Assembly (NCBI GenBank): GCA_018399715.1
Contig: JAGYNR010000003.1
Span: forward strand, 831-64,830
DNA length: 64,000 nt
Direction: 5' to 3'
Source: Desulfobacterales bacterium
Lineage (GTDB): Bacteria; Desulfobacterota; Desulfobacteria; Desulfobacterales; SKZT01
Below are positions 12,621 to 46,492 of this stretch, in pieces. The position numbers and the translations under genes are program-made. The notes beneath the pieces are model-generated. The model saw only the letters and a program-made list of their open reading frames with translations, had not been told where the DNA came from and made no database searches. Position 1 is the stretch's first letter. Each line of letters begins with the position of its first letter.

Positions 12621-12621
12621 A

Positions 12622-13851: not shown

Positions 13852-13864
13852 AGGGGGTTAATAT

Positions 13865-14308: not shown

Positions 14309-14328
14309 TAGTTCCTTTTCGATCTTCA

Positions 14329-15334: not shown

Positions 15335-15350
15335 CAGGATGTTACAGTAG

Positions 15351-17040: not shown

Positions 17041-17064
17041 TAATTTAAGGAGATAATATTACCA

Positions 17065-18444: not shown

Positions 18445-18456
18445 GATACATGTGAA

Positions 18457-19020: not shown

Positions 19021-19047
19021 TTTGCCAGGTGCTGTGGGAAAATCTGT

Positions 19048-19824: not shown

Positions 19825-19829
19825 TCTGC

Positions 19830-24825: not shown

Positions 24826-24909
24826 GAAGGTAAGAAGGTTAGAGGGCGAGAAGGTTGGGGGAAACCTGTCAACGGGTAAACCAGGAAAATAAGCAATAAC
24901 GGAGAACCT

Positions 24910-28320: not shown

Positions 28321-28390
28321 GAAGGTCAGAGGTCAGAGGTCAGAGGGCAGAGGGCAGAGGGCAGAGGGCAGAGGGCAGAGGGCAGAGGCT
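28321..28390. repeat. Polypurine 7-bp tandem array, about 10 units of AGAGG(G/T)C
   Basis: gaaggtc agaggtc agaggtc then agagggc x6 then agaggct, starting 4 nt after the TonB-receptor stop. Confidence 0.9.
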
Positions 28391-28775
28391 GAGAGAGTGA
28401 GAAGGTAACCTAACCCTCTTGTCTTTTTGTGCTAAAAAAAACGGGCTCATATTTAAATACATTGTTTCCTTACCACCAACGGAGGGTGCATTTCATGCAC
28501 CATTAAAGGCTACCTGAACTCACCTTTTCACCTCCTGCTTTCTGCCCTCTGCCTTGTTTCCTTAACAGAAATAATCAACAAGAGCCCCGTGGTTCTCTTT
28601 GACCATTCCTGGTTCGATTTAACCAGGATTTTGGAAGCGGAGGTAACCGGGAACCTCCCTGTTTTCTCCCCAGAGTCATCAGGATCTGAAATTATTTCAG
28701 ATTATTAAATAAATAGGAATCTTTTATACCGTATATTTGTATTTCGGGGTATAATTTTTGCTTATGTTAAATTGC

Positions 28776-30233
28776 ATGAAAAGATCACTTTTTCATATGG
28801 CTTTAATGGCTGCAACCCTGCTGATACTGGTGGGGCCGGTTGGGTCCGTTTCGGGGGAGGCATACGAACCGATGGGAACTGAAGATTCAGAAATCATACC
28901 CAGCCAGGTTGAGTTACAGCTGATGGCAAAAATTAACGAGGCGAGAAAAAATCCGCTTCAGACCGTGGCCGGACTCGGTCTTGATCCTCAAACGGTTCTG
29001 CAGCAGCGGCCCGAGTTAAAAGAGATTCTCATTAACGGGTTACCCCCTTTGGAGATTAATGAAAATCTTTATACGGCCGCTGAAATGCATACCCGGGATA
29101 TGCTGGCACAACACTATTATTCAAGTACTTCTGCGGATGGCCGGACGGTTTCGGACAGAATGATCGAAAGCGGCTATATGCCCACAGCCTGCGGGGAAAA
29201 TCTGGGGATGCTGGCATTCATTCATTTTCTGCCGCCGGAGAAGGCGGTAGCGTTAATTTTTGAAAACATGCTGCGTGATGAGCTGAGTCCGGATCAAAAA
29301 CGCCCTGTCAATATTTTGAATCCGAATTTTAAAGACATCGGTGTGTATCTCGGAACCGGATCGTGGGTTCTGGAATCCACAAAATACAATGTCTATTTGG
29401 CGAGCTGTGATTTTGGAAACGACGGCGTAACGTATTCTGACCAGGTTTTAATCGCCTTAATCAACCAGGCGCGGCACAACCCCGTCAAAATAGCGGAAGC
29501 ACTGGGAATGGACAAGGGAAAGCTCTTTGAAAACCGGCTGGATTTGGTTTCTGTTTTGAGCCATGGTCTGTCCCCGGTCACCCTTAATCATGGTCTTTAC
29601 AATGCTGCCAGGGGACATGTACGGGACATGCTGGAAAAAGGGTATGTGTCACACATTTCACCTGATGGTAAAACACCGGAAGACAGACTGGCTGAGCAGG
29701 ATTATGAGGCTATTACCTGCGGAGAAGCCATCGGCTCTGTCATATCCGGCAGCATTGATATTTCCCATATTGCACTGGAAATGTTATTTGAAAAGCAATT
29801 TCATGCAGAATTTACCCACAATTCAATTAAAGACCTGGTGATTTTAAATCCGGATTATAACGAGATCGGCGTGGGATTCCAAAGTAAAAAAACCGTTAAT
29901 GCCGGTAGTGCTGCTGAAGAGAATAACTCCATAGTTGTTTTTGATCTGGCCAACAGAATAATTGAAAAACCATGCTTTTTTGGGGTTGTTTACAGGGATA
30001 TCGATTCGGATGGAAATTACGGTCCGGGCGAAGGTATTGCCAATATTAAGGTGCAAATCGTTGATGAATTGAAAACCATTGTAAATGAAATGGAAACCGA
30101 TTTAAGTGGTAGTTTTTATGCTGAAATCGAACCGGATTGCTATACCGCACGGGTCATTTGCCATGATACGGCATATGAAAAAAAATTTGAAATCAATGAG
30201 CTTAACCGCTTTATTGAAATGCAGGTCCAATAA
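28776..30233 (+). CDS. Secreted protein with two CAP/SCP (PR-1-like) domains and a C-terminal Cna-B/CarboxypepD_reg-like beta-sandwich
   Basis: Signal peptide MKRSLFHMALMAATLLILVGPVGSVSG. Duplicated blocks (HTRDMLAQHYYSSTSADGRTVSDRMIESGY...CGENLG and HVRDMLEKGYVSHISPDGKTPEDRLAEQDY...CGEAIG). C-terminus VVYRDIDSDGNYGPGEG. Confidence 0.7.
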   Translation: MKRSLFHMALMAATLLILVGPVGSVSGEAYEPMGTEDSEIIPSQVELQLMAKINEARKNPLQTVAGLGLDPQTVLQQRPELKEILINGLPPLEINENLYTAAEMHTRDMLAQHYYSSTSADGRTVSDRMIESGYMPTACGENLGMLAFIHFLPPEKAVALIFENMLRDELSPDQKRPVNILNPNFKDIGVYLGTGSWVLESTKYNVYLASCDFGNDGVTYSDQVLIALINQARHNPVKIAEALGMDKGKLFENRLDLVSVLSHGLSPVTLNHGLYNAARGHVRDMLEKGYVSHISPDGKTPEDRLAEQDYEAITCGEAIGSVISGSIDISHIALEMLFEKQFHAEFTHNSIKDLVILNPDYNEIGVGFQSKKTVNAGSAAEENNSIVVFDLANRIIEKPCFFGVVYRDIDSDGNYGPGEGIANIKVQIVDELKTIVNEMETDLSGSFYAEIEPDCYTARVICHDTAYEKKFEINELNRFIEMQVQ

Positions 30234-30263
30234 ATAAGTATGGCGTTTTTTTCGGAAAAAATA

Positions 30264-30292
30264 TTGACAACGATTTATGTTGCCGGTACATA
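30264..30292 (+). promoter_or_regulatory. Candidate sigma-70 promoter with about 150-nt leader for the Cys-rich protein gene
   Basis: TTGACA (30264-30269), 17 nt, TACATA (30287-30292). The -10 is imperfect. Confidence 0.3.
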
Positions 30293-30443
30293 TAAGTATA
30301 TTTAATTTTTTAGTTTGTCTTAACTTTATGGGAAGAAAGGAGGGGATAGGAAAACATAAAGCGTTTTAGAGTGTAAAAAATATTGAAATCATTTAATTTA
30401 GTTGATGAGCGTTCAGGTTTAAAAATTGTTAAAGGAGGAAAGA

Positions 30444-31658
30444 ATGAAGAAATTTTTGTTTTTGGGTACCATGATGCTGGCCGTGCTGGCGTTCTCATTT
30501 ACCGCCGTCGCCGATGAGGTGGATTGCGGCAAATGTAAAAATTTTGGTTTAGCAGATATGGGCTGCCCGACCGGTGTTCAGGATGAGTGTGAGGCAACCC
30601 CGGTAGATTGGCCGAATATATATTTCCCCATCTGTGACTGCGAAGATGCCAATACCAATTTCAGGCAGAGTACATTACCGCCTCTTGGTGGTGAAGACTT
30701 GGATGAAAATTATATCGGCGTCAGAATCAAAATCCTCACCCCGGGCGTATATTTCGGCGATGCCACCGGTGATATAGATTTCTTGGCTTATGAAAGCGAA
30801 AGTGCTCTATGCGCGGATGTTGGTAAATATACGGGTGATTTTAAACAGGGCAGTTTTTCGGTTGTGTACTATGATGATTTAAATTGTATCCCCGGTGATG
30901 AACTTGATGAGGATGATATCAATGGTGTGGGGCTTGATTGCGAACTTGAGCCTAATGAGAAGGCTGTTTCATTGGCTACAAGGGGAGACACCGCTGCTAA
31001 TGTTGCAGATACTTTTTTCCTGATGCCGGATGCGGATGAAACAAAAATAGTCACTGCGCCGTATACCGCTGCTGATTATGAAAACTGGGCCGGTTATTCC
31101 TACTGGGCCATAGAAATTCCAACTTTAAGATATGATGCCAGTGAAGTGATGTCCTATGGATATCAGGCGGAAAAAGTTCTGATTAAAATTGAGCTGGTTG
31201 CCCCGGGTGTCGGCGGTATATGCCAGGGTCCCTGTAATGTTATCTGCGAGTGTACGGTTGAAGTCGCGGAAATATGTCCTGACGAATATGGCTGCCTGGT
31301 GTTCCCGTATGTCATAACCCAGTATACCCCCTGGATTACAGGTATTGCTGTTAATAATGTCGGAGCACTGCCCGCATCGCAAATGGAAGCTACCTTTATT
31401 ATCACCGATGCTGACGGAAATCAGTTTTCTTATACGAAAGATGATTTTTCAAAGCGTAACTGGAGCAATGTTGTGGATTCCATGCTGGGTGATTTTGATG
31501 GAACGCCTGCTGCCGGAAATGCCTGGTTGAAAGTTGTAACCAATTTTAAGGCAGATGGATATTCCTTCCTTACCGATGGTGTATTCGGTGGGTCTACACT
31601 TCCCAGGTTCTGTGATAGCCACGGAGATATTAAGATCCCTTGTTGTACTAACTACTAG
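30444..31658 (+). CDS. Secreted Cys-rich protein (18 Cys in mature part) ending in one copy of the FP(H/Y)-W-TG-N module
   Basis: Signal peptide MKKFLFLGTMMLAVLAFSFTAVA. GGAGG RBS 5 nt before the ATG. Clusters CGKC, CDC, CQGPCNVICEC, PCC. C-terminal LVFPYVITQYTPWITGIAVNN...IITDADG. Confidence 0.7.
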   Translation: MKKFLFLGTMMLAVLAFSFTAVADEVDCGKCKNFGLADMGCPTGVQDECEATPVDWPNIYFPICDCEDANTNFRQSTLPPLGGEDLDENYIGVRIKILTPGVYFGDATGDIDFLAYESESALCADVGKYTGDFKQGSFSVVYYDDLNCIPGDELDEDDINGVGLDCELEPNEKAVSLATRGDTAANVADTFFLMPDADETKIVTAPYTAADYENWAGYSYWAIEIPTLRYDASEVMSYGYQAEKVLIKIELVAPGVGGICQGPCNVICECTVEVAEICPDEYGCLVFPYVITQYTPWITGIAVNNVGALPASQMEATFIITDADGNQFSYTKDDFSKRNWSNVVDSMLGDFDGTPAAGNAWLKVVTNFKADGYSFLTDGVFGGSTLPRFCDSHGDIKIPCCTNY

Positions 31659-31753
31659 AAAACCAAAATTAGTTGCAACAAGCTCTCCAGGTCACATGTT
31701 TTTCAACCATTAAGCAGGCCTGGAAAATGAAAAATTGAAAAACAAACCAAATG

Positions 31754-31792
31754 ATGGGCGGAATTTATTTCAGATTCCGCCCATTTCTTCTG
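31754..31792 (+). terminator. Rho-independent terminator
   Basis: 11-bp perfect stem atgggcggaat / attccgcccat, 9-nt loop, followed by TTCTTCT. Confidence 0.8.
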
Positions 31793-31810
31793 AATGAACC
31801 GAATTCTGTT

Positions 31811-31961
31811 AAATAGTGCCCGAACGAAAACTAGGATTTTTCGTTAAGATCAAGGAAGACAAAAATTTTAATCACAGACATACATTGAGTATTTTGAGGA
31901 TTAAAATTTGAGTCTGACGCAGATATTGGCGAAAAAGACAGTTTTCGTTCAGGCACTAAAT
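31811..31961. repeat. Palindromic intergenic repeat, copy B (inverted relative to copy A)
   Basis: 19-bp terminal inverted repeat tagtgcccgaacgaaaact (31814-31832) / agttttcgttcaggcacta (31940-31958), 1 mismatch. The core (31862-31909) has an 11-bp perfect internal stem aaattttaatc / gattaaaattt. Confidence 0.6.
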
Positions 31962-32108
31962 AAATGGTTAAAAAAATGATTTTAATTTATGATAATTATT
32001 GTTAAATTATGTATAGGTTACAGGCTCCGGAATAAGGCAAAAGAATAAAACAAAAATAGATGATGATATTTTTTATTTAATGCTGTTTATAAAGAGGAAC
32101 ACGGTAAT

Positions 32109-34595
32109 ATGAAAATTAAAGCGTTACTTTTTTTTCTGTTTGGATGGTTTTTATGGTTAGCCCCGTCAACTTATTCTTTTGCATTATCCGGGGGGCCGGA
32201 TGGATTCGGGTATATGTATGAGGATTCCGGACTTGAAAACTGGACGGACATATCCAAATCCGGAACCCATTTGAATGTAGTCAAAGATACCATCAGTGAT
32301 CCGGTTTGGATGGGTTTTGATTTTGAATTTTATGGAAATACTTATAGTGATGTGAGTGTTGCCAGCAACGGACTAATAACCTTCAGTCCGAAGTCTTATC
32401 GCAGGGGATATACATCGGGACAGGAAATTCCTACACCCGGGGGGTATGCGGATAATTTTATCGCCGGATTATGGGACTATCTTTCCCCCAATCACACATG
32501 AGGGGTTGAAAATTTGTATTATGAAACCCGGGGGGTTCCAGGAACGCGTCAATTTATCGTACAATATACCAATGTTATATTTGCAGGCTCTGATACAGAA
32601 AATACCTTTCAGATTATTTTAAATGAAGGCTCCAATGATATAGTGGTAAATTATATAGATGTAACAACCCGACTGAAAGATGGAGAACAAAGGACATTCG
32701 GTGGAATTGAAAATGAAGATGGTACCATTGGGCTTCAGTATGATTTGCTGGATGAAAAAGGAGATTACCAAAATAAATCTGTGCGGTACTTTCCCGGGGT
32801 GGAAACACCGGCTCCCGGCAAAGGAGTTCTTAAAGTCAATTTATTTCCGGAAGAGGCGGTTGAGGCCGGAGCACAATGGCGGCTTTCCGATCAGCGCTGG
32901 CAAGACAGCGGAGCCAGCATAAATGATCTTGAACCCGGCGAATACACGTTGGAATTTCAAGATATCAGCGGATGGGAAACGCCTGCGAATCTTTCGGTTA
33001 ACATTGAAGCTGACGAGATTACCACAAAAGAAGTTACCTATATCCGGGCAACCAGTGAAGATGAAGCTGACGGTCTGAAGGTGTTCATATATCCGGAGGA
33101 GGCTGTGAATGCCGGCGCCAAATGGCGGGTTGATGAGGGTCAGTGGAATGACAGCGGTGTCATCGTTCGCGGCTTGAGCATAGGAGAACATACGGTCAGC
33201 TTTAATACCATTGACGGATGGGATGCCCCGGATGAAATAACCGTCTCTTTGACCCGGCAGTTGCCGATGGCTCCCGGAATTTATACGCTTCCCGAAGAAG
33301 ACAATTTGGAGCAAACCACCTATACACCCAACGATACCACGATAACAAAAAATTCGCTGGTTTTTCCTCATGTCCGTAGCGATAGTACCTGGGAGACCGA
33401 AATAGGGGTGATTAATATCAGCGATACCCAGGAGCTGAACGGTTCTTTTAAATTATATAATAAATATGGCGTCATGGTTTCCGGTTTAGATGCCGTGGTT
33501 ATTTCTCCTCTGGGCAGAAAGGAAGTTACGGTCGGTTTTGATTTTTTATATCCTTATGATGCCTGCTATATCGTGTTTGAGGGTGATCATGAACATCTGG
33601 CCGGCTATATGAGACATTATGCAGATGGCAATTACAGCGTGGCAACTCCCGGTGTCCTGGCTTCCGGGGTTAGCCCCGGGGATATTTTTATTTCTCATAT
33701 TGCCTCACAGGGAACCTGGCAAACATTTATAAGTTTGGTAAACATCAATACGGAGCCGGTTTCTTTGAATATTGAATTTAACAACGGCACTTCAGGACAG
33801 ATTGATATGGATCCGGGAGCTTACCGGTATTTTGCCGTTTCAGATTTGTTTGACGGGCAGGTTCAGCCCGATATTACTTCCGCTGTTATAAAAAATGTTT
33901 CCGGAGTCATCGGAATGGAATTATTTTTAGACAATAGCAGTAAACTGGTAAGTGGCGTGCTTATCGATAACCATACTGCGGACAGACTTTATTTTCCGCA
34001 CATTGCCTTCAGCGAAGGATGGGGAACGGGCATTGTCGTTTATAATCCGTCAGAGACGGCCGCCCAGTTAACCGTTTTAAGTTATGATGCTGAGGGGAGC
34101 ATTCTGGATTCATCGAATATTACTATTCATTCAAACAAAAGATACGCTGGGACCATTGATGATCTTGGACTTCCTCAGTTAACGGAATGGATCCATATTC
34201 AGTCCACTCAGCAAATGATGGGGTTTGAGCTTTTTACAAATACGAACAAGATGGCGGGCTGTAACGGAGTCAATAACAGCCATCAAAACGGCATATTCCC
34301 GAAACTTGAAAAAAACGGTGCCAGCGGTATTGCTTTTGTAAACCCGGAAACGGATCCGGCAAATGTAACCTTAACGGCTTATAATAATGCAGGAGAGCCG
34401 GTCGCTGAAAAATCCCTGACGATTGAACCCAAAAACAAGCTGGTTATGTTTGCACATGATATTTTCAGCCAGAATCTCAAAAATGCTACCTACATCAGAT
34501 ATACTTCAGATCGTCAAATCGTTGGGTTTCAGTTAAATGCCGCTGATGGCGAAGGGATGCTCGACGGGTTGTCAGCCCTGGATATCAGCGAGTAA
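32109..34595 (+). CDS. Secreted multidomain protein interrupted by one in-frame TGA (32499-32501): NIDO-like N-domain, two W-rich beta-sandwich repeats, four FPH-W-T-N modules
   Basis: Track ORFs 32109-32501 and 32514-34595 are in the same frame. Signal peptide MKIKALLFFLFGWFLWLAPSTYSFA. FIAGLWDYL...(TGA)...LYYETRG...FIVQYTNV spans the stop. Confidence 0.6.
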
Positions 34596-37261
34596 TGATG
34601 AAGAGGCTAAGGCGGTTTAAAAGCTTCCTGTTGTCTCAAAACCCGAAGGTATATGGTTGGGCGGTCCTGATACTTTTTATTTTTCCGGTATCCTTTATCA
34701 AAATATATGACTGCGATATCTGGTGGCACATCCAACTGGGCCGAAGTATGCTCGAAAACATGGATTTGCCCGATTACACCCGTTTTTATTTTACCCCTGT
34801 TAACGTTAATTATTCGGATTTACGATATACCTGGTTGGGAGATATTTTTTTTTACGTCCTGCACTACCTGGGTAAAGACTTAAGTCTTCAGCTTCTGGTG
34901 GTGGCTGTGGTCATTTTATCATGTTATCTTCTGTACAGGATTGCCGGTCCGAAATTTAATGCATGGCATCTTTTAACCCTGATGCTGTTTGTGATCGGAA
35001 CCTTTCAAAAACAGCTCATCCGGAATTCCTTATTTGCACTTGTTTTTACGACGCTTATTTTCTGGCTGTGGTGGCAGGTAAGGTACCGGGGAAAAGAAAA
35101 AAAGATATGGTTCTTTCCGGTTCTGATGGGGGTGTGGGGATGTATACATGGCAGCTATTTGCTGGGGTTCGGGGTTATGGCCCTTATTTTTGCGGGGGAT
35201 TGGATTGATACCTTTCGCGGAATCAACCAGGGACGCAAAAAATTGACCTTTCATTATGGAATCGTGACACTGATATCTTTTATTCTGATTGTCGCTTACA
35301 ATCCAATGACAATTCATTATTTCAGGATCAATCAATTAAAGCAGATCTTTTCTCAGGGGGCTGCATCAAAAAAGGTTGTTTATTCAGATGATGATATAAA
35401 AAAGGACTTGTTCCGGCAGCAACCGGAAGAAAGTATTCTTTTGCTGTCCGGCGTTGCAGTTGAAGGGGTTTTCAAAAACGTCAAAACTTTTTTAAATACC
35501 CTCATATTTCAACAGGACAAGGATATTTTACCATCCGGAGATTTTCGTTCTCCGTTTGATTGTTTTTACTGGTTATATGTAAAAGTTTCCTTTTTCATGG
35601 GCTTAATGGGTCTTTTGTTTCTGACCGTTTTTTCGAAGCCGGTAAGGTGTTCCCATCTTTTGCCTTTTTTGGCCATATTGGTGGTTGGATCAGGATATGC
35701 CCGGACAGTCGGGTATATTCCTGTTGCAGCAACATCTGCCGTATTTATTACGGCAAGAAATGAAGAATTTAGCCTTAAAATCAGTGATCAATGGGCCAAA
35801 TGGATAGCCGGTCTGGCATTAATAGCGGTTTACGTTAATCTGGCGACCGGGTACAAAGTCCCTATCGGAACGGATCTCCATATATTCGGGATTGGGAGGA
35901 TACCGACTTATGCCGATGAAAGCGCTCATAAAATTCTCACTGATTTTCCGGAAAAAAAAGTCTTTAACACCATAATGAATGGTGGTTATTTGCTTTATAA
36001 ATGGTATCCGGAAAAAAAAGTTTTTATTGACGGCTTTTTCGCACCCCATCCGTATTCTCTTTTTTTGGATTACGGTAATTGTATCAAAGGAAAAACTGAC
36101 CCGGACGTTTTTCATAAGAAATACGGTGTGGAACTTGCCGTTATTGATCAAATCAGGCGCCCCTTACATAAACAGTTTTTAAAAAGTGATAACTGGCATG
36201 CCCGTTTTATCGATCAGGGGTCGGTTGTTTATGGTTACCAGCCTGATGATACGCTTGTAACCCCAACCCCCGCTATTTTAACCCCTGAACAGCAAATTTT
36301 GAAATTGCCTGTAAAATTTCGAACGCTCTTTGCCCGAAATTTGTTGATGATTCAAAATGATATGGTTAAAAAAGGCAGGCTGAAAGATATCCATCTGTTC
36401 AGAAAAGAGTATGCGAAATTGATCCGGAAAATGGAAAATTTGATGGTCGAGGAATCAAAAACCCTTTATCATTCAATAGATTATTATACAGGAGTATACG
36501 GAACCGTTAATTCAAAAACCATTTCCGATGAAATCGGTCATAATAAGGCATTTAAAGACAACCGGTATGAAAAAGCCGTACATTACGGCATTAAAGTTTT
36601 AGAGAAGATGCCGGAAAGAGTTCCGGTGCTGGTGAATTTATCGGAAATGTTTTCCCGGAATAAAGACGTCAAAAACAGCATAGAGTATCTGGATCGTGCC
36701 TGGGCGGCCCGGAAAAAAGATCCTGGTTTCTGGAGCAGTAACCGCTTTAATATTGCCAGGCTTTGTTTGAAACTTTCATCCTTTGCAAAAAAAAATGGTC
36801 AGTTGTTGACCGCTTACCGGTTGTTGAGCAGAGCCAACAGGACAGACAGTTCGGTAATTTCAAATAATAAATTATATGACATCGGAATTGAATTTGCCAG
36901 GAAAAAAGCCTCTCAGGGACAAGAGATAAAAGCCTATGAAATATTAAAACAAATGGAAATTGATTTCTCAGGTTACGGACGGTTTCATAATCAAATCGCA
37001 TGGTATATTCTGTCGAATAAGGATACGGTTTTCGACGGTCCTGAAGCCGCAAAAAAATATGCTGAAAAAGCGATACGTCTGATGAAAAAAAACAATGATC
37101 CGGATATCGATACCGCCTACCATACCATGGCCGAAGCCTGTTATCAATTAGGAGAATACGACAGGATGCGTGAATTTGAACAAAAAGCCCTGGCGGCCGC
37201 ACCGGATGGCAGAAAGAACTTCTACCAACCGCGGTCAGTTAAGGATCGCGGCAATAAATAA
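34595..37261 (+). CDS. Polytopic (about 12 TM) membrane protein with periplasmic domain and C-terminal TPR repeats; possible GT-C-fold glycosyltransferase
   Basis: DCD in the first periplasmic loop (FIKIYDCDIWWHIQLG), 12 hydrophobic segments in the first ~420 aa, TPR-like C-terminus (AYHTMAEACYQLGEYDRMREFEQKALAAAP). TAATG overlap with the upstream gene. Confidence 0.6.
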   Translation: MMKRLRRFKSFLLSQNPKVYGWAVLILFIFPVSFIKIYDCDIWWHIQLGRSMLENMDLPDYTRFYFTPVNVNYSDLRYTWLGDIFFYVLHYLGKDLSLQLLVVAVVILSCYLLYRIAGPKFNAWHLLTLMLFVIGTFQKQLIRNSLFALVFTTLIFWLWWQVRYRGKEKKIWFFPVLMGVWGCIHGSYLLGFGVMALIFAGDWIDTFRGINQGRKKLTFHYGIVTLISFILIVAYNPMTIHYFRINQLKQIFSQGAASKKVVYSDDDIKKDLFRQQPEESILLLSGVAVEGVFKNVKTFLNTLIFQQDKDILPSGDFRSPFDCFYWLYVKVSFFMGLMGLLFLTVFSKPVRCSHLLPFLAILVVGSGYARTVGYIPVAATSAVFITARNEEFSLKISDQWAKWIAGLALIAVYVNLATGYKVPIGTDLHIFGIGRIPTYADESAHKILTDFPEKKVFNTIMNGGYLLYKWYPEKKVFIDGFFAPHPYSLFLDYGNCIKGKTDPDVFHKKYGVELAVIDQIRRPLHKQFLKSDNWHARFIDQGSVVYGYQPDDTLVTPTPAILTPEQQILKLPVKFRTLFARNLLMIQNDMVKKGRLKDIHLFRKEYAKLIRKMENLMVEESKTLYHSIDYYTGVYGTVNSKTISDEIGHNKAFKDNRYEKAVHYGIKVLEKMPERVPVLVNLSEMFSRNKDVKNSIEYLDRAWAARKKDPGFWSSNRFNIARLCLKLSSFAKKNGQLLTAYRLLSRANRTDSSVISNNKLYDIGIEFARKKASQGQEIKAYEILKQMEIDFSGYGRFHNQIAWYILSNKDTVFDGPEAAKKYAEKAIRLMKKNNDPDIDTAYHTMAEACYQLGEYDRMREFEQKALAAAPDGRKNFYQPRSVKDRGNK

Positions 37262-37345
37262 TCGTGGCGGATAGTCATCGATATTTTCCGCGACTCTTAA
37301 TCTGATTTTATTTATATAGGTCAAGAATGCAAATGGGAGTCATCT

Positions 37346-38041
37346 ATGAAAAAAACAATAAAATTTATTTTTCTGTATTTACCAGCATTTTTTTTCGTAC
37401 TGTATTTTACCTGTCCTGCGGCGGCGTTTATGCCCAACTGGAAACCTGGAGACAGCTGGATTGTTGAGGTTTCCTACGCACGGGCGTTTGGTCCGGAAAA
37501 ATGGTCGGAACCGGTTTACTGGATCTATCGTATTTCTGATGACAAAACACAAGCACAACCCGGTATTATTTTGGAAGCCCGCCATAAAACCGATAATGCT
37601 TTGGGGTTGCGTGTATGGCTTTCCGGTGACCTGGAACCCATTAAAGTTCAGACGTTTCGCAACATCCGGGGAGAAGAGAAGATGATGGAAATTAAACCGG
37701 AACCGGGGTTTCCTGTTTGGATTCATTATACACGCGCTCCCTTTGATTTTCCGGTATTTCCCTTAGATGTTCCCGCAACCGGAACATTTACCAGAATTCG
37801 CCCTTTAAGTAATACCAGCGAGCTCCGGGTGCCAGAAATACTGAAACAGGAAAGTCGGGTAAGTGATGGAATTCCGGAAGGATATGGTTTTGAGCTTCAA
37901 TCCGGTGCCGGGGACATCATAGAAGTGACAGTATTGTCTCAGGAGCAAGAGACGTTGTTTTCTCAGTATTGGGACAAAAACCTCCCCTGGCCCCTATATG
38001 GTGAAAACAAAAACATGAAATACCGTTGGGTGAAAGAATGA
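37346..38041 (+). CDS. Secreted hypothetical protein (231 aa)
   Basis: Signal peptide ...FTCPAAAF, no recognisable motif. Stop overlaps the next start (ATGA). Confidence 0.55.
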   Translation: MKKTIKFIFLYLPAFFFVLYFTCPAAAFMPNWKPGDSWIVEVSYARAFGPEKWSEPVYWIYRISDDKTQAQPGIILEARHKTDNALGLRVWLSGDLEPIKVQTFRNIRGEEKMMEIKPEPGFPVWIHYTRAPFDFPVFPLDVPATGTFTRIRPLSNTSELRVPEILKQESRVSDGIPEGYGFELQSGAGDIIEVTVLSQEQETLFSQYWDKNLPWPLYGENKNMKYRWVKE

Positions 38042-40458
38042 AAAAGATAATTGTTTTATTACTGTTTTTGGCGCTAATTTTTTTTGGATTTGCACCGGTT
38101 TCCGCCGAAATTTACGAGGCAAGACAAATCCCATGGTCCGGACATTGGTGGCCGTTTACCGAAGGAGAGCTTGTCAATGGTTATGAAAATGATCAGGAGC
38201 CGCCATTAGCCAAATATGATATGCTGGTATCGGGAACCGCTTATGGTCCGGCGATGAAATACGGTAAACAAAATTTTTACTACCCGTACAAAGACTCCTG
38301 GACAGGGCTTTGTTTTTACTGGGCAATGTCTTCCATTCTGGAGGCAGAGCCCGAACACCGAAGTGTCCATAATAACGTGATTTTTAATATCGGAGATAAA
38401 AAGGGGCTCTTGGCCGCTTTTTATTATAATGCAATTTATGATGCCCATTCCGTTAAAAAGCCGGAAAACTTTCATGCTGTTCTTGAAGACAATATCGCCT
38501 CACAAAGAACTTCTATCATAATGGATTTGGGCAGTTCTGATGAAGTCTGGACTTATCCGGTGTTTAAATATGAAACTACCTTTAATCAAACCGGAGATGT
38601 CCGTCATTATGAGACGACCATTTACTATGCCTCCTATTCCGACCCTGATCAGACGGGAACCATGGTGAGAAATCGTACCTTTTATTATTATTTTCAGCTG
38701 GATGGAGATGTCGTTATTGACAGCGGCTGGGAGAACGGCAGCGGACAAAAACCACCGAAAAGAGCTTATATTCCCCTGGGCAGAAGACCATTGAGCAACG
38801 CTTTTGATTTGGATGCCGGTTTGATTCATGAAATTGCCGGTTCAAAAGACGATCCGTTTCATGGCAATGATTCGTTTGATACCGCATCGCCGATACAAAG
38901 CGGCGGCTATTGCCTGATAGCTTTCAATTCGGATTTTTTCACGATATATTTGGAAAACGGGGACCGGCTGAATATTCACTTAATTCCTGAAATTTCCGGA
39001 TCCGTTACGCTCGGAATTTATAATGCGGATAAGAAGTCGGTGTTGGACTCCACCCGTAAAGATTACCTGGTTTATCAGGCCGATGAAGCAGGCATTCATT
39101 ATCTGAAGATTGAACCGTCCGGAAATGAAAATAATCCGGTTTATGGGCTTTATATTCTTCAGGCGCTTTCCCGTCAGAGCCTTTTTCCGTTGGATCCGGC
39201 CGGGAACTGGATCAACGGTCTGGCTTTATTGCAACCGGACCCGGAACCAGGGCGTGTGATTCTGTCAAGGATAGATAAAAGCGGATTGCCTTTCAAAGGG
39301 AATCTCATCGATATTTTCGGCGTTCGCCGGACCGGAATCTGTGAGGGGTTTAACCTGTCTTCAGCAGCTATGGAAGGATATATCAGAGTTGACTCCGATT
39401 GGCCTGTTCTTGGAATGCAGGCGGTTACCAGCGGCAATTCCTCTTTGAAAGGCAATAACATGTTATCTTTTGACGAGGCTTCGGATGAACTGTTTTTCCC
39501 TCATTTGGCGGTCTCCCTTTTTGCCGGATGGCAGACCACTGTCGGTTTGATTAATGTCAGTCAACAAAAAGAAGAAATTTTGTTGCAGGGATATGACCCT
39601 GATGGGTCGGTTCTTGTTTCTGAATCGATATCTTTGAATCGGGGAGAGAAAAAAGAATTTAATATATCCGAGTCTTTTTTAACAAATGCGGCGAGTATGA
39701 GTGCGACGGTTGATAGCCGGAGAACCTGCCTGCTGGGATATATGGAATATACCAATTATTCATCCTCGGTTCAGGGGTGCGATGTAATTCCAGCAGCATC
39801 GGGACAGGATAGGGGGGAATTGCTTATCGCTCCCGTCGGCTCCTTAAATGGAAATTGGCATTCAGGTGTTGCTGTCATGAATACCGGGTATGAAACAAGC
39901 GAGGTCTTTTTTTCCGCCATGGATAGTCTGGGTGAAACTGTTCAAACCGTTTCCCGGGTACTGAAACCAAACCAAAAATGGGTAAAAGTCCTTGGCGCTC
40001 TTTTTCCCGGGGCGGTTGTTGAAAATATGGCTTCCATTCGGATTGAATCGCAAAACGGTCAGCCATTGACCGGGCTGGTCCTGTACATCTCCGGCTCCGG
40101 AAGGCAACTGGCCGGAATACCGTTGCTTCCGTCTTCCGAAGAGGTATTGTATGTACCACATATAGCGTCAAACAATGGCTGGTGGACAGGACTGGGACTG
40201 ATCAATGCCGGTAAGGAAGAAGAATGGATTTCCTTCTTTCTGTATGATGATAATGGGACGCTTTTAGATACGGTTGAAAAAGGTCTGTTTCCCGGCGAAC
40301 AATTTAATTCGTCTGTCCGGAACCTGTTTAATCCGGATATGGTTGATAGTCCGGGATATATAGAAATTACCGGCAGTGGAAACTGCCCGCTTAGCGGGGC
40401 GTATCTGATAGGTACACAAGATGGTTATAAACTCATGGGCGATGCACTTGCTCGTTAA
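38038..40458 (+). CDS. Secreted multidomain protein: Cys-containing N-domain (possibly transglutaminase/papain-like), PPC-like domain, four FPH-W-T-N modules
   Basis: Signal peptide MKKIIVLLLFLALIFFGFAPVSA. SWTGLCFYWAMSSILEAEP motif. PPC-like GGYCLIAFNSDFFTIYLENGDRLNIHL...GIHYLKIEP...YGLYIL. Four C-terminal modules from about 39175. Confidence 0.7.
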   Translation: MKKIIVLLLFLALIFFGFAPVSAEIYEARQIPWSGHWWPFTEGELVNGYENDQEPPLAKYDMLVSGTAYGPAMKYGKQNFYYPYKDSWTGLCFYWAMSSILEAEPEHRSVHNNVIFNIGDKKGLLAAFYYNAIYDAHSVKKPENFHAVLEDNIASQRTSIIMDLGSSDEVWTYPVFKYETTFNQTGDVRHYETTIYYASYSDPDQTGTMVRNRTFYYYFQLDGDVVIDSGWENGSGQKPPKRAYIPLGRRPLSNAFDLDAGLIHEIAGSKDDPFHGNDSFDTASPIQSGGYCLIAFNSDFFTIYLENGDRLNIHLIPEISGSVTLGIYNADKKSVLDSTRKDYLVYQADEAGIHYLKIEPSGNENNPVYGLYILQALSRQSLFPLDPAGNWINGLALLQPDPEPGRVILSRIDKSGLPFKGNLIDIFGVRRTGICEGFNLSSAAMEGYIRVDSDWPVLGMQAVTSGNSSLKGNNMLSFDEASDELFFPHLAVSLFAGWQTTVGLINVSQQKEEILLQGYDPDGSVLVSESISLNRGEKKEFNISESFLTNAASMSATVDSRRTCLLGYMEYTNYSSSVQGCDVIPAASGQDRGELLIAPVGSLNGNWHSGVAVMNTGYETSEVFFSAMDSLGETVQTVSRVLKPNQKWVKVLGALFPGAVVENMASIRIESQNGQPLTGLVLYISGSGRQLAGIPLLPSSEEVLYVPHIASNNGWWTGLGLINAGKEEEWISFFLYDDNGTLLDTVEKGLFPGEQFNSSVRNLFNPDMVDSPGYIEITGSGNCPLSGAYLIGTQDGYKLMGDALAR

Positions 40459-40482
40459 TATAATATATGAAAAGCTAACGAA

Positions 40483-41592
40483 ATGAAGAAAAGGAAGAAA
40501 CTGATTTTGAGGCAGATAAAAATTCTATTGTATGTGGCGGTATTGATTCTGTTGTTTACCGCAGGAACGGTATTGGCAAAAGAAACACAAAGGTTGAAGG
40601 TTTTTTTTACCGGGGATCTGAAAGGATGGATAGCTCCTGTTCCGAAATGAGGCGGCACCAACTCGGGCGGTCTGGCCCGGGCTTTAACGGTTATGAAAAC
40701 CATTGCTGAAAAAAATGAAACGGTATTACTGCTGGATGCCGGGGGTATTTACCCAACAGAGAGATACTCAAAAAGAACGGCTGAGATCATTACCCGGATT
40801 GGATTTGAAGCCATGGATTATATGAATTATCAAGCTGTTAATATGGGCCTGAGTGATTTTATGATGGGTCCCCGATATCTTCTTGAACTTTTTTCAACAT
40901 CGGCCTTTCCGATACTAACGTCTAATTTGGTGTATAAAGCTTCCGGACTCACCTTTGGGAAAAAATATGTCATCAGAAATATCCGGGGTGTTCGCGTGGG
41001 TATTCTGGGAATTATGTCCGAAGACAACCTGAATGTCATTAAGGACCAAGAATTTACAGACGCTCTTACCGTATTGCCGCCTGAGCCGATTTTGGCGACC
41101 TTGATTCCCGAAGTGCGGCAAAAAGCGGATCTGGTAATTTTATTATCCCAGGCGGGGTTTGACAGTACCTCTCAACTGATAAAAAAGACCTCCGGAATTG
41201 ATCTGGCCATTGTCGGCAACAACAGTCGGGACGAGTTACCCAAATGCGGAGGCAATGACCATCGTGAGACGTATGAAACCGTAAATGGTACCTTGATTGC
41301 CCCGGTTCGCCGGTTGGGCAGGGCGCTTGGATATGTGAAAATCAAGCTTGATCCTGCGGATCATTCAGTGGAGGGGATGGAATTTACAGAGATTGAACTA
41401 AGCATGAATGTTGCCATGGATTCCGGGCTGGAAAGAATCAGTGGTGCGGATATCTATGTGACCGCCATGAAAGAGATGAAGAAAAATGCCGAAAAGGTGA
41501 GAGGGCAATTGGAAAAAGAAATTGAACAGTTTAAAGAATACAGTCCCGAAGAATATTTTAATCATATTCTATCAGAAAAAAATAAATCATAA
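40483..41592 (+). CDS. Secreted 5'-nucleotidase-fold (calcineurin-like) protein with degenerate metal ligands and an in-frame TGA (40648-40650); candidate selenoprotein or pseudogene
   Basis: ATG 40483 is in frame with track ORF 40693-41592. Signal/anchor MKKRKKLILRQIKILLYVAVLILLFTAGTVLA. FFTGDLKG...K-TGA-GGTNSGGLARA...LLLDAGG...NMGLSDF...LLSQAGF...IVGNNS parallels the 5'-NT motif order. Confidence 0.55.
40662..40681 (+). ncRNA. Candidate bacterial SECIS hairpin
   Basis: Stem CUCGGGC/GCCCGGG (7 bp, one G-U). 6-nt loop GGUCUG at +19..+24 after the UGA. Confidence 0.4.
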
Positions 41593-41639
41593 GCAATAAT
41601 ACTCATAAAATGGAAATGGGAAGAAGGAAGGAAAACAGT

Positions 41640-42041
41640 ATGTCAAGATTTCCAATGAAATACGGTTTATGGATTATTATGGTAACCCTGCTGTTTTCAT
41701 GCAGTACTATCAGGACCGAACCCGATGAAAAAACACTTCATGAGAGAGCTGAAAAGCTATGGCAGGCTAAGATGGAAGGTGACCGGGAAACGATTTACAA
41801 TATGAGTGTTGAATCTTACCGGGAAAAAGTTGAGCTGAAAAGATTTCTTCGAGGTCCGCTTATAAATATTATCAGCTTTTCAATTCAGGAGATCAAAACC
41901 GATTTGCCTGATGCACAGGTGACAGTCAACTATCGATTTTCACATCAGGGTTTCGAATTCGATGCAATTGCCAAAGACCAGTGGGTCTGGGAAAACGAAA
42001 ATTGGTATTTAAAAATGAAACCGTTGAATCTGCCGTTTTAG
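41640..42041 (+). CDS. Small lipoprotein, function unknown
   Basis: Lipobox LLFSC|S. AGGAAGGA RBS upstream of ATG 41640. Confidence 0.55.
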   Translation: MSRFPMKYGLWIIMVTLLFSCSTIRTEPDEKTLHERAEKLWQAKMEGDRETIYNMSVESYREKVELKRFLRGPLINIISFSIQEIKTDLPDAQVTVNYRFSHQGFEFDAIAKDQWVWENENWYLKMKPLNLPF

Positions 42042-42070
42042 AAGCATCCGTTGCTGATTGGTATCCTCAT

Positions 42071-42805: not shown

Positions 42806-42865
42806 TGATACAACTTTTTTACCTATAGGTTTAGAACTGAAAATGTGGGTAACAATTATAATTTT

Positions 42866-46463: not shown

Positions 46464-46492
46464 TTGACCCAATTTGCTTTATTTGGTAATAA
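46464..46492 (+). promoter_or_regulatory. Candidate sigma-70 promoter in an AT-rich divergent intergenic region
   Basis: TTGACC (46464-46469), 17 nt, TAATAA (46487-46492). Confidence 0.3.

What the first reader, a model, noticed from the sequence alone, without database searches (positions are those of the whole stretch)
28758..41592. T2SS-adjacent island of six signal-peptide proteins plus a GT-C/TPR membrane protein: candidate dedicated surface-assembly or secretome module
Directly downstream of a complete T2SS, a sigma-54 two-component system and a TonB-dependent receptor lie seven same-strand genes:
- a double-CAP/SCP protein
- a Cys-rich protein
- a NIDO-like/W-repeat/4-module protein
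- a 12-TM + TPR protein
- a 231-aa secreted protein
- a Cys-domain/PPC/4-module protein
- a catalytically dead 5'-nucleotidase-fold protein

Four of them are translationally coupled (TAATG at 34593-34597, ATGA at 38038-38041). None is a recognisable degradative enzyme with intact catalytic motifs. Several combine adhesion- or scaffold-type domains.

The co-localisation suggests one functional unit, for example assembly of a sheath, surface layer or adhesive matrix exported through the neighbouring T2SS. This is a hypothesis from gene context only.
Basis: inference. Interest (0 to 1): 0.65.

Follow-up and report, generated by a model that had tools for sequence, protein, structure and literature searches.

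The report
Secretion-linked island encoding two selenoproteins
A gene cluster conserved in sulfate-reducing bacteria (Desulfobacterota), next to a protein-export machine, encodes exported proteins of untested function; two of them use the rare amino acid selenocysteine, and one of those appears to be a selenoprotein type not yet described.

Summary
The seven same-strand genes, six signal peptides and both start/stop overlaps are real.

Both TGAs are conserved in relatives: about 41 loci for the 5'-nucleotidase-like gene and 17 for the NIDO-like gene. Each is followed by a hairpin with compensatory base changes, so both are selenocysteine codons.

- The "dead 5'-nucleotidase" is a relative of the known UshA-like selenoproteins, scoring below the NCBIfam cut-offs.
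- The NIDO-like selenoprotein is absent from a 2026 list of 119 families.

Synteny across 80 Desulfobacterota loci supports a functional unit for a core only: double-CAP, Cys-rich, 231-aa, 810-aa, UshA-like selenoprotein and lipoprotein. This core usually sits behind a sigma-54 two-component system and TonB receptor, and next to the T2SS wherever upstream DNA is visible. The GT-C-like/TPR protein is rare. The NIDO-like gene is a recurrent accessory.

- A sigma-54 promoter abuts the CAP start codon in relatives.
- The 810-aa protein models confidently as a GP42 transglutaminase fold with an invariant cysteine.
- Three island proteins share a ~100-aa module, found in ~7,900 protein clusters on varied extracellular heads.

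The surface-assembly function remains inference.

The parts
11103..22202 (+). Type II secretion system operon: GspE, F, G, three further pseudopilin-like genes, K, a PilM/PilN-type L, M, a 258-aa ORF, and secretin GspD at 19830-22202.
   Evidence: Pfam hits. GspG is at 13865-14308. GspD or other T2SS genes lie within 10 kb of the 810-aa homologue in 10 other genomes.
22466..26253 (+). Periplasmic binding protein (PF04392), HAMP histidine kinase, and sigma-54-dependent response regulator (24910-26253).
   Evidence: Pfam. Same order in 18-24 of 40 loci with enough upstream DNA.
26266..28317 (+). TonB-dependent receptor, 683 aa, of the small-ligand size class.
   Evidence: Plug plus barrel Pfam domains. 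All NCBIfam TonB models score below cut-off. Precedes CAP in 26 of 40 loci.
28747..28762 (+). Sigma-54-type promoter-like site GGGTATAATTTTTGCT. The GG and GC elements are correctly spaced. It ends 13 nt before ATG 28776.
   Evidence: 8 of 11 consensus positions match here. The same site scores 9-11 of 11 in 15 of 36 relatives, against 1 of 36 in the reverse-complement control, always 12-18 nt before the start ATG (ATGA in all but one).
28776..30233 (+). Secreted double-CAP/SCP protein. The ORF is listed from TTG 28758; the likely start is ATG 28776.
   Evidence: PF00188, two stretches, E=9e-17. Homologue present in 33 of 40 loci.
30444..31658 (+). Secreted Cys-rich protein. Its C-terminus (31293-31655) is one copy of the shared ~100-aa module.
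   Evidence: Invariant cysteines in a 20-sequence alignment. hhalign against the 810-aa family gives probability 92.5%, E=5e-7. Module HMM hit E=9e-25.
32109..34595 (+). NIDO-like selenoprotein gene: signal peptide, NIDO-like domain, two Trp-rich (PEGA-like) repeats, and four modules (33354-34592).
   Evidence: One frame split by a single TGA. Four module hits. Orthologues lie near the same module in L002, L024, L010, L018, L020, L037, L065, L068, L080 and L086.
32499..32501 (+). Selenocysteine codon (TGA) of the NIDO-like gene.
   Evidence: TGA occupies the same loop in 10 genome sequences (window plus 9 loci) and 7 metagenome loci, and is never TAA or TAG.
32523..32539 (+). SECIS-like hairpin GAAACCC-GGG-GGGUUCC. 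It lies 28 nt from the UGA to the loop. It is weaker here than in relatives because of one A.C mismatch.
   Evidence: Across 8 sequences 95% of cells pair, 6 of 8 pairs show compensatory changes, and 0 of 500 shuffles reach the observed score. Energy is -5.5 kcal/mol here and -11.7 in L002.
34595..37261 (+). Polytopic membrane protein with a C-terminal TPR domain (GT-C-like, unverified). It is translationally coupled to the NIDO-like gene.
   Evidence: At least 9 hydrophobic segments and a conserved DxD just after the first one. TPR hits. Only a weak DUF6057 hit. The AF2 model was unusable.
37346..38041 (+). Secreted 231-aa protein of unknown fold. It overlaps the next gene's start (ATGA).
   Evidence: 24-sequence family with invariant Trp, Pro and Gln positions. 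No PDB, Pfam or NCBIfam match.
38038..40458 (+). 806-aa secreted protein: GP42-type transglutaminase/papain-like fold, a PPC (collagen-binding-like) domain, and four modules (39178-40455).
   Evidence: PF16683, 46 bits. AF2 pLDDT 87, pTM 0.81. Foldseek matches 3TW5 at E=4e-12 and the ColH collagen-binding domain at TM 0.7. C92 is invariant; H146, D163 and H190 are at least 90% conserved.
40483..41592 (+). UshA-like (5'-nucleotidase-fold) selenoprotein gene, 369 codons, with a signal peptide. The metal-binding histidines are lost.
   Evidence: Frame continuity across the TGA. Best NCBIfam hit is NF041198 'UshA-like (seleno)protein', E=6e-42, 144 bits, below the cut-off of 275. YTGDxxG replaces HTNDxH.
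40648..40650 (+). Selenocysteine codon (TGA) of the UshA-like gene (PVPK-U-GG).
   Evidence: UGA is aligned at this site in 41 distinct sequences from 44 sites. Cys occupies the position in L046, in two L029 paralogues, and in 11 full-length database homologues among P0075-P0087.
40662..40681 (+). SECIS hairpin CUCGGGC-GGUCUG-GCCCGGG. The stem starts 11 nt after the UGA; the loop starts 18 nt after it.
   Evidence: -14.1 kcal/mol, z=-2.6. Across 29 sequences 91% of cells pair, 29 cells show double changes, and 0 of 500 shuffles reach the observed score. It meets the published bSECIS constraints.
41610..42041 (+). Small lipoprotein partner (~143 aa) that follows the UshA-like gene.
   Evidence: Cysteine C31, in my reading the lipobox Cys, is at least 90% conserved across 31 sequences. 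Present in 34 of 51 loci with downstream DNA. No known family.

Best explanation
The region is a conserved envelope/exoprotein module of Desulfobacterota, not a one-off island.

Shown:
- A core set recurs in dozens of species: double-CAP protein, Cys-rich protein, 231-aa protein, GP42-fold cysteine enzyme, UshA-like selenoprotein and a small lipoprotein.
- The core usually follows a binding-protein/kinase/sigma-54-regulator trio and a TonB receptor, and sits next to a T2SS operon.
- A sigma-54 promoter abuts the CAP start codon in relatives.
- Two genes here decode UGA as selenocysteine with SECIS hairpins.
- Three proteins (Cys-rich x1, NIDO-like x4, 810-aa x4) carry one ~100-aa beta-sandwich module. 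That module occurs widely as a four-copy cassette on extracellular proteases, glycosidases and adhesin-like heads.
- This genome adds two accessory genes: the NIDO-like selenoprotein and a polytopic TPR membrane protein.

Inferred mechanism:
1. The two-component system switches on the CAP-led genes through sigma-54.
2. The signal-peptide proteins cross the inner membrane by Sec and the outer membrane by the adjacent T2SS.
3. The module cassette keeps them at the cell surface, possibly on the glycan made by the flanking ABC-transporter-type pathway.
4. There the invariant cysteine of the GP42-fold enzyme (acyl transfer: cross-linking or cleavage) and the two selenols act on a proteinaceous surface coat. 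The UshA-like scaffold has lost its phosphatase metal ligands, and in sister clades it is fused to a tetrahaem cytochrome, which points to thiol/selenol redox chemistry.
For: - Synteny matrix and counts.
- T2SS adjacency in 10 loci.
- Sigma-54 promoters.
- Conserved TGA.
- Sec/Cys pairs for the UshA-like family.
- Hairpin covariation. Fit to the published bSECIS model.
- NCBIfam UshA-like selenoprotein hits.
- Cytochrome fusion in L044.
- GP42 fold and invariant Cys.
- Shared module.
- Its spread (7,946 representatives) and varied heads.
- Glycan genes flanking the module in four diverged genomes.
Against: - No experiment or expression data exist. Export by this T2SS, surface retention and every chemistry step are inferred.
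- The window's own sigma-54 site is weak (8 of 11).
- The window's NIDO SECIS hairpin is only -5.5 kcal/mol, above the -7.5 criterion.
- The NIDO-like clade has no Cys-containing homologue at the Sec position. That is unusual for selenoproteins.
- The 810-aa family lacks GP42's Cys-His dyad: Phe follows the Cys.
- Cassette proteins elsewhere are not next to T2SS genes in the 2 cases checked.
- The tightly conserved TonB receptor and sensor trio fit an uptake system at least as naturally.
- No gene for Sec synthesis or insertion lies in the window (no tRNA).
Confidence: 0.5

Rival explanations
1. A TonB-centred acquisition system. The secreted proteins capture or process an external substrate such as a metal(loid), chalcogen compound, peptide or cofactor. 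The TonB receptor imports the product, and the binding-protein/kinase/sigma-54 trio senses it. This would be a PUL-like or piracy-like logic rather than surface building.
For: - The binding-protein/kinase/regulator/TonB-receptor/CAP order is the most conserved block.
- The receptor is of the small-ligand size class, with its best partial hits to B12 and siderophore receptor models.
- A sigma-54 promoter sits on the first secreted gene.
- A PPC domain and papain-like fold are typical of secreted peptidases.
- Sec and Cys-rich proteins are good soft-metal ligands. The 2026 review attributes about 70% of predicted Sec-ligand interactions to metals.
Against: - Several genomes (L011, L033, L044, L046, L053) have T2SS genes, the 810-aa gene and the UshA-like gene without the sensor trio, receptor or CAP between them. 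The receptor is therefore dispensable for the core.
- No ABC importer or TonB-ExbBD genes lie in the window.
- Glycan-synthesis genes, not catabolic genes, flank the module.
Confidence: 0.25
2. An extracytoplasmic redox or electron-transfer module. The UshA-like selenoprotein and its lipoprotein partner reduce or transform an external sulfur, selenium or metal species. They would take electrons from c-type cytochromes, with the other proteins as accessory factors.
For: - The model of the known family NF041198 includes a cytochrome c554-like C-terminus.
- The L044 orthologue, in the same genomic slot, carries four CxxCH motifs.
- CxxU and CGU motifs occur in many orthologues.
- There is similarity to thiosulfohydrolase SoxB (E=4e-13).
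Against: - The window's protein has no cytochrome domain and no partner Cys next to Sec (PVPK-U-GG).
- No cytochrome gene lies in the window.
- This does not explain the GP42-fold enzyme, CAP protein or module cassette.
Confidence: 0.15
3. The seven genes are neighbours without a common function, and the two in-frame TGAs are nonsense mutations or assembly errors (pseudogenes).
For: - The GT-C-like/TPR gene is syntenic in only 1 of 80 loci, and the NIDO-like gene sits at variable positions.
- The 450-nt gap with a terminator-like hairpin and a 155-nt hairpin before the NIDO-like gene suggests separate transcription units.
- The window's NIDO hairpin is weak.
Against: - Core synteny holds across genomes whose proteins are only 25-40% identical.
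- The stop is always TGA, at the same codon in 41 and 17 sequences, with reading frames intact for hundreds of codons downstream.
- The hairpins covary.
- Cys occupies the site in other UshA-like homologues.
- TGA is a normal stop for other genes in the window, so recoding is site-specific.
Confidence: 0.05

Closest known systems
UshA-like (seleno)proteins: COG0737 'UshA-like, CxU' of the GOS selenoproteome (PMC2398784); NCBIfam NF041198 (PCGU type) and NF049981 (family 2, CxxU)
   Same: - 5'-nucleotidase/metallophosphatase-type N-terminal fold.
- A Sec in the loop after the first metal motif, just before the GGLAR motif.
- A SECIS with a GGUCU loop.
- NF041198 is the best hit for the window protein and for six orthologues from other loci.
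   Different: - It scores 144 bits against a cut-off of 275, and 43 against 140.
- Neither a PCGU nor a CxxU motif is present (PVPK-U-GG).
- There is no cytochrome c C-terminal domain.
- All the metal-binding histidines I compared from memory of the UshA motifs are replaced.
- The literature searched gives no function or gene context for these families. The link to the T2SS and the GP42-fold gene is new here.
GP42 transglutaminase of Phytophthora sojae (Pfam PF16683, PDB 3TW5) and its marine Vibrio relatives
   Same: - The Pfam model is passed.
- Foldseek E=4e-12, TM 0.61 over 332 columns.
- The invariant Cys at the N-terminus of a helix aligns with the catalytic position.
   Different: - GP42's unusual Cys-His dyad is absent: the family has Cys-Phe. 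Other conserved His and Asp residues (H146, D163, H190) may complete the site.
- A PPC domain and four modules are added.
- Whether it cross-links or cleaves is unknown.
Dedicated-T2SS surface-layer loci, such as the Aeromonas S-layer protein with its own T2SS-type genes and anchoring to O-polysaccharide (recalled from memory, not checked here)
   Same: T2SS genes, secreted-protein genes and O-polysaccharide-type synthesis genes lie side by side.
   Different: - No S-layer protein homologue is present.
- The candidate cargo is a set of enzymes and Cys/Sec-rich proteins.
- A sigma-54 sensor system and a TonB receptor are interposed.
C-terminal sorting or anchoring domains of secreted proteins (T9SS CTD, SLH, PEP-CTERM) as functional analogues; Pfam DUF5719 as the only weak sequence relative
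   Same: A repeated tail is shared by many unrelated extracellular heads: subtilases, papain, reprolysin, GH16, LRR, C25.
   Different: - It is about 400 aa (4 x ~100 aa) rather than one short domain.
- It is not always C-terminal.
- No sorting enzyme is known.
- No adjacency to T2SS genes was seen in the two outside cases checked.
- DUF5719 matches only 5 of 43 sampled proteins, and no paper mentions it.
NIDO domain (PF06119) proteins
   Same: The N-terminal domain is 31-40% identical to domains of proteins that carry PF06119, and it shares the FxFYG and WDDL-type motifs.
   Different: - The Pfam score is 14 bits against a cut-off of 25.
- Only this clade has Sec in the loop after the WDxL motif. 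About 80 other NIDO-like domains have Gly, Tyr or Ser there and no Cys.
Multi-selenoprotein operons (SAO and Tso systems; PMC13188914)
   Same: Two unrelated selenoprotein genes lie in one conserved neighbourhood, which suggests pathway-level use of Sec.
   Different: The protein families differ, both carry signal peptides, and they are linked to secretion and envelope genes.

Membership tests
Bacterial selenoprotein gene (UshA-like gene, 40483-41592) | In-frame UGA conserved among orthologues, with coding sequence on both sides | tested here: met
   UGA at the aligned site in 41 distinct sequences. The frame is intact on both sides.
Bacterial selenoprotein gene (UshA-like gene, 40483-41592) | Cys-containing homologues at the Sec position | tested here: met
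   Cys in L046, in two L029 paralogues, and in 11 full-length database homologues among P0075-P0087.
Bacterial selenoprotein gene (UshA-like gene, 40483-41592) | [quoted passage not shown] | tested here: met
   7-bp stem, GGUCUG loop, 18 nt from the UGA, -14.1 kcal/mol. Covariation: 0 of 500 shuffles reach the observed score.
Bacterial selenoprotein gene (NIDO-like gene, 32109-34595) | In-frame UGA conserved among orthologues | tested here: met
   10 genome sequences and 7 metagenome loci, always TGA.
Bacterial selenoprotein gene (NIDO-like gene, 32109-34595) | Cys-containing homologues at the Sec position | tested here: not met
   No Cys at that position in about 80 more distant NIDO-like domains or in 13 database homologues.
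Bacterial selenoprotein gene (NIDO-like gene, 32109-34595) | bSECIS hairpin meeting the published constraints | tested here: inconclusive
   In relatives the criteria are met: 8-bp stem, GUG or GGG loop, 25-28 nt spacing, -11.7 kcal/mol, and 6 of 8 pairs compensatory. The window's copy has a mismatch and reaches only -5.5 kcal/mol.
Bacterial selenoprotein genes (both) | Sec machinery (selA, selB, selC, selD) in the same genome; selenium in the protein | not testable with these tools
   The window holds no tRNA and no sel gene. The source contig was not on record.
NCBIfam NF041198 UshA-like (seleno)protein, PCGU type | Score at or above the curated cut-off of 275 bits | tested here: not met
   144 bits; profile positions 4-338 of 519 matched.
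NCBIfam NF041198 UshA-like (seleno)protein, PCGU type | P-C-G-U motif and a C-terminal cytochrome-like region | tested here: not met
   The window has PVPK-U-GG and ends after the phosphatase-like domain. The PCG-U motif and the cytochrome are seen in other loci, such as L044.
NCBIfam NF049981 UshA-like (seleno)protein family 2 | Score at or above 140 bits; CxxU motif | tested here: not met
   43.3 bits. No Cys lies three residues before the Sec.
Active 5'-nucleotidase / metallophosphatase | Metal-binding motifs DxH, GD, GNHE, H and GHxH | tested here: not met
   The window has TGDLKG, DAGG, NMGLSD, SQAG and GNNS in their places. This is my comparison of the sequence with the canonical motifs, which I recalled from memory. 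Active relatives keep HTNDxH. There is no Pfam Metallophos hit.
GP42-type transglutaminase (PF16683) | Pfam gathering score and fold match to 3TW5 | tested here: met
   46.1 bits against a cut-off of 25. Foldseek E=4.4e-12, TM 0.61. Profile against PDB E=7e-15.
GP42-type transglutaminase (PF16683) | Catalytic Cys followed directly by His (the 'CH' dyad) | tested here: not met
   The Cys is invariant (C92), but the next residue is Phe in the window and in the family consensus. The dyad is described in PMC10318531.
GP42-type transglutaminase (PF16683) | Transglutaminase activity | not testable with these tools
   This needs an enzyme assay.
NIDO domain (PF06119) | Pfam gathering score | tested here: not met
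   14.2 bits against a cut-off of 25, E=0.043, on the joined sequence. The link is only transitive, through PF06119-bearing homologues.
GT-C glycosyltransferase with TPR domain | Polytopic N-terminal domain with an acidic motif in the first outer loop | tested here: inconclusive
   At least 9 hydrophobic segments. A DxD directly after the first one is invariant across 4 homologues. Loop topology was not determined.
GT-C glycosyltransferase with TPR domain | Sequence or structure match to a known GT-C family | tested here: not met
   Only DUF6057 at 15.9 bits, cut-off 29.8. PDB searches found TPR only. The AF2 single-sequence model had pLDDT 45.
T2SS substrate set | Signal peptide plus conserved adjacency to T2SS genes | tested here: met
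   The N-termini look like signal peptides by eye. T2SS genes lie within 10 kb in 10 loci.
T2SS substrate set | Secretion dependent on GspD or GspE | not testable with these tools
   This needs mutant secretome analysis.
Sigma-54 regulon of the adjacent response regulator | GG-N10-GC promoter upstream of target genes | tested here: met
   15 of 36 CAP upstream regions score at least 9 of 11, against 1 of 36 in the control. The window's site scores 8 of 11. None was found before the TonB receptor gene, the 810-aa gene or the UshA-like gene.

The most novel reading that the evidence does not exclude
Desulfobacterota display selenocysteine on exported, surface-retained proteins.

- The four-module cassette would be an unrecognised surface-retention (sorting or anchoring) device serving thousands of extracellular proteins.
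- The NIDO-like protein would be a new selenoprotein family in which Sec arose without a Cys ancestor.
- It would work together with the UshA-like selenoprotein and a transglutaminase-fold enzyme in selenium-based extracellular cross-linking or redox chemistry, under sigma-54 control from a leaderless transcript.
Probability: 0.2. Interest if true: 0.85.

Novelty: new variant of a known kind. Interest (0 to 1): 0.65.

Why it matters
- UshA-like selenoproteins have been listed since 2008 with no function or context. Placing them in a conserved neighbourhood gives concrete experiments. That neighbourhood holds a T2SS, a sigma-54 sensor system, a TonB receptor, a GP42-fold enzyme and a lipoprotein, and a cultured carrier exists (Desulfonema magnum).
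- The NIDO-like protein would add a selenoprotein family that lacks Cys homologues at the Sec site and carries a signal peptide. Both features are unusual. Cys/Sec-pair search pipelines cannot find such a family.
- Gene callers split both genes at the TGA, so public annotation of these loci is systematically wrong.
- The ~100-aa module defines a large, essentially unannotated family (~7,900 clusters at 50% identity) on secreted proteases, glycosidases and adhesin-like proteins. Learning what it binds would annotate all of them.

Tried and rejected
- Genetic-code change (TGA as a sense codon): rejected. TGA ends at least five other genes in the window, and only these two genes have internal TGAs.
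- Rfam: no family matched at gathering threshold.
- Exact-protein look-up of the source contig: not on record.
- Strict sigma-54 pattern in the window: at chance level. The signal appeared only in the comparison across relatives.
- Sequence and profile searches against the PDB found nothing meaningful for the Cys-rich protein, the 231-aa protein, the lipoprotein, the module or the membrane protein's N-terminal domain.
- AF2 of the membrane/TPR protein without an alignment: pLDDT 45, unusable, so it was not sent to fold search.
- The idea that the cassette marks T2SS cargo specifically: not supported. Two cassette proteins from other lineages have no T2SS genes within 10 kb.
- A conserved second Cys (PKCGG at about residue 254) as the resolving partner of the Sec: rejected, because it is not conserved in close orthologues.
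- Sec in other island proteins: none found.

Full report
**Observation**

Both overlaps, TAATG at 34593-34597 and ATGA at 38038-38041, are exact.

Pfam confirms the upstream context:
- a T2SS: GspE, F, G, three further pseudopilin-like genes, K, a PilM/N-type L, M and secretin D;
- a binding-protein/kinase/sigma-54-regulator trio;
- a TonB receptor.

The rest of the window encodes glycan synthesis. Upstream of the T2SS lie glycosyltransferases and GDP-mannose dehydratase. Downstream lie a CmcI-type methyltransferase, more glycosyltransferases, Wzm/Wzt with a Wzt_C domain, and an MBOAT acyltransferase.

Two of the seven genes are not simple ORFs. The NIDO-like gene is 32109-32501 plus 32514-34595 in one frame, split by TGA at 32499. 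The 5'-nucleotidase-like gene has its signal peptide only when read from 40483 through TGA at 40648. TGA terminates other genes in the window, and no other long frame has an internal TGA flanked by coding sequence.

**The two TGAs are selenocysteine codons**

A fully syntenic relative, L002, whose island proteins are 41-58% identical, has TGA at both identical positions.

UshA-like gene:
- Across 80 genome loci fetched with the 810-aa family, UGA is aligned at the site in 41 distinct sequences.
- Cys replaces it in L046, in two L029 paralogues, and in 11 full-length database homologues among P0075-P0087.
- Many orthologues have CxxU or C-G-U motifs.
- The stem of the downstream hairpin starts 11 nt after the UGA. 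Its loop is GGUCU(G/U), which I recall resembles the E. coli fdhF SECIS loop.
- In 29 sequences 91% of cells pair, 29 cells show changes on both sides, and no shuffle out of 500 reaches the observed covariation.
- It meets the published bSECIS constraints at -14.1 kcal/mol.

NIDO-like gene:
- TGA sits in the same loop in 10 genome sequences and 7 metagenome loci, and is never TAA or TAG.
- A GAGACCC-GUG-GGGUCUC-type hairpin follows. Six of eight pairs show compensatory changes, and no shuffle out of 500 reaches the observed score.
- Caveat 1: the window's own copy has one mismatch and reaches only -5.5 kcal/mol.
- Caveat 2: no Cys form exists. About 80 more distant NIDO-like domains have Gly, Tyr or Ser at that position.

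No other island protein has a conserved internal stop in any relative.

**What is known about these two**

NCBIfam names the UshA-like protein's best hit NF041198, 'UshA-like (seleno)protein'. It scores 144 bits against a cut-off of 275. Family 2, NF049981, scores 43 against 140. Orthologues from six other loci behave the same way.

UshA-like selenoproteins were listed in the GOS study of 2008 and in a 2026 inventory of 119 families. The papers I searched and read give them no function or gene context.

Compared with the canonical metallophosphatase motifs, which I recalled from memory, the window protein has lost all of the metal-ligand histidines. However, the NF041198 model ends in a cytochrome c554-like region, and the L044 orthologue carries four CxxCH motifs. 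That points to redox chemistry.

The NIDO-like protein matches no NCBIfam model and nothing in the 2026 list. Its Pfam NIDO score is sub-threshold.

**Is it one unit?**

tblastn of all island proteins against the 80 loci gives these counts.

| Gene | Loci with the gene | Loci with enough flanking DNA |
|---|---|---|
| CAP | 33 | 40 (at least 8 kb upstream) |
| TonB receptor | 26 | 40 |
| Sigma-54 regulator | 24 | 40 |
| Histidine kinase | 21 | 40 |
| Binding protein | 18 | 40 |
| Cys-rich gene | 22 | 40 |
| 231-aa gene | 12 | 40 |
| UshA-like gene | 33 | 51 (at least 3 kb downstream) |
| Lipoprotein | 34 | 51 |

- T2SS genes are visible in 10 loci. In L036 and L047 GspD directly precedes the binding-protein gene, as it does here. 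In L011 (Desulfonema magnum), L033, L044, L046 and L053 the T2SS abuts the module without the sensor trio or receptor.
- The GT-C-like/TPR gene recurs only in L002, with weak matches in L073 and L074. In L073 a separate TPR gene lies next to it.
- The NIDO-like selenoprotein recurs near the module but at variable positions.
- Glycan-synthesis genes also follow the module in L002, L011 and L073.

**Regulation**

A (T/A)GGCA(C/T)-N5-TTGC(A/T) site lies directly before the CAP gene in 15 of 36 relatives at 9 or more of 11 matches. The reverse-complement control gives 1 of 36.

The site ends 12-18 nt before the start ATG (ATGA in all but one). Given the usual spacing of sigma-54 promoters (my knowledge), this predicts a leaderless or near-leaderless transcript.

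The window's site, at 28747-28762, is weaker at 8 of 11 matches. No such site precedes the TonB receptor gene, the 810-aa gene or the UshA-like gene.

**The 810-aa protein**

With a 29-sequence alignment AF2 gives pLDDT 87 and pTM 0.81. Foldseek then finds three things:
- the GP42 transglutaminase (3TW5, E=4e-12, TM 0.61);
- the ColH/ColG collagen-binding (PPC) domain (TM 0.7);
- for the C-terminal modules, small beta-sandwiches such as TM1070.

C92 is invariant, sits at the N-terminus of a helix, and aligns to the catalytic position of GP42. GP42's Cys-His dyad is replaced by Cys-Phe. H146, D163 and H190 are at least 90% conserved. I read it as a probably active cysteine enzyme, but cannot say whether it cross-links or cleaves.

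**A shared module**

The C-terminus of the Cys-rich protein is homologous to the modules of the 810-aa protein (hhalign probability 92.5%). An HMM built from the window's nine copies finds exactly 1, 4 and 4 copies in the Cys-rich, NIDO-like and 810-aa proteins.

In other loci the same cassette sits on alpha/beta-hydrolase, Big_1/MORN, peptidase C25, MAM and PKD heads.

Against 1.84 billion representative proteins the profile finds 7,946 proteins at E of 1e-3 or better. Nearly all top hits have four copies. A sample of 43 carries subtilase, papain, reprolysin, GH16, LRR, CARDB and other extracellular heads. Only 5 of 43 give a DUF5719 hit, and no paper mentions that family.

This pattern fits a surface-retention or assembly tail. 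Two outside examples have no T2SS genes nearby, so the cassette is not a tag specific to this T2SS.

**Interpretation**

The best-supported reading is a sigma-54-controlled, T2SS-coupled exoprotein module. Its members are probably held at the cell surface by the cassette. They would use an invariant cysteine and one or two selenols for acyl-transfer and redox chemistry on a surface coat tied to the neighbouring glycan pathway.

Synteny, Sec decoding, the fold, the shared module and the promoter are shown. Export route, localisation and chemistry are inferred.

The main rival is a TonB-centred acquisition system. A cytochrome-linked redox role for the UshA-like protein is compatible with either reading.

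**Verdict**

- two exported selenoproteins, one apparently an undescribed family;
- a conserved genomic context for the UshA-like selenoproteins;
- a large unannotated module family.

Noticed in passing
window 28747-28778; L002, L010, L024, L026, L045, L048, L067, L073, L076, L082 upstream of their CAP genes: The sigma-54-type promoter ends only 12-18 nt before the CAP start codon in at least 11 genomes. This predicts a leaderless or near-leaderless sigma-54-dependent mRNA with no room for a Shine-Dalgarno sequence.
   Followed up: partly
window 28323-28388: A tandem repeat of the 7-mer AGGGCAG, 9.4 copies at 98% identity, lies directly after the TonB receptor stop codon. Its purpose is unknown.
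   Followed up: no
window 31809-31963: A 155-nt near-perfect hairpin made of nested inverted repeats (-63 kcal/mol, z=-11.3). It lies in the 450-nt gap before the NIDO-like gene and is single-copy in the window. It could be a MITE-like insertion or a regulatory RNA. A short terminator-like hairpin precedes it at 31754-31784.
   Followed up: partly
L044:~7650-9030 (UshA-like gene). The loci L051, L053, L062 and L065 share the same APCG-U/EPCG-U motif, but their C-termini were not examined.: In this clade the UshA-like selenoprotein has a PCG-U motif. In L044 it also carries a C-terminal tetrahaem (4 x CxxCH) cytochrome c554-like domain, matching the C-terminal part of NCBIfam NF041198.
   Followed up: partly
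window 32523-32539 compared with L002:4266-4284: The window's NIDO-gene SECIS hairpin has an A.C mismatch and reaches only -5.5 kcal/mol, against -11.7 in the closest relative. Sec insertion may be inefficient here.
   Followed up: partly
window 41981-59667 and 2849-11079: The T2SS and the island are embedded in an ABC-transporter-dependent glycan pathway. It holds a CmcI-type O-methyltransferase, Wzt with a Wzt_C domain (in my reading typical of terminally capped O-polysaccharides), Wzm, MBOAT, many glycosyltransferases, GDP-mannose 4,6-dehydratase and an epimerase. CmcI homologues next to the module are 55-79% identical in 9 of the 10 other loci that have one (26% in L029). That is more conserved than the module proteins.
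   Followed up: partly
L011:12443-13859 (Desulfonema magnum): A SecB-like chaperone gene and an ORF with a weak PARP-like hit lie between the 810-aa homologue and the UshA-like selenoprotein gene.
   Followed up: no
L010:14207-22289; L072:4026-8099: Very large proteins carry the same module cassette on other heads: an alpha/beta-hydrolase, Big_1/invasin/MORN, and a gingipain-type peptidase C25 in an Acidobacteria MAG. In L010 they lie next to the module.
   Followed up: partly
window 1789-2785: A rhodanese-domain gene followed by a MauE/DoxX-type membrane protein gene lies at the left end of the window. Neither was examined for a link to the sulfur or selenium chemistry discussed here.
   Followed up: no
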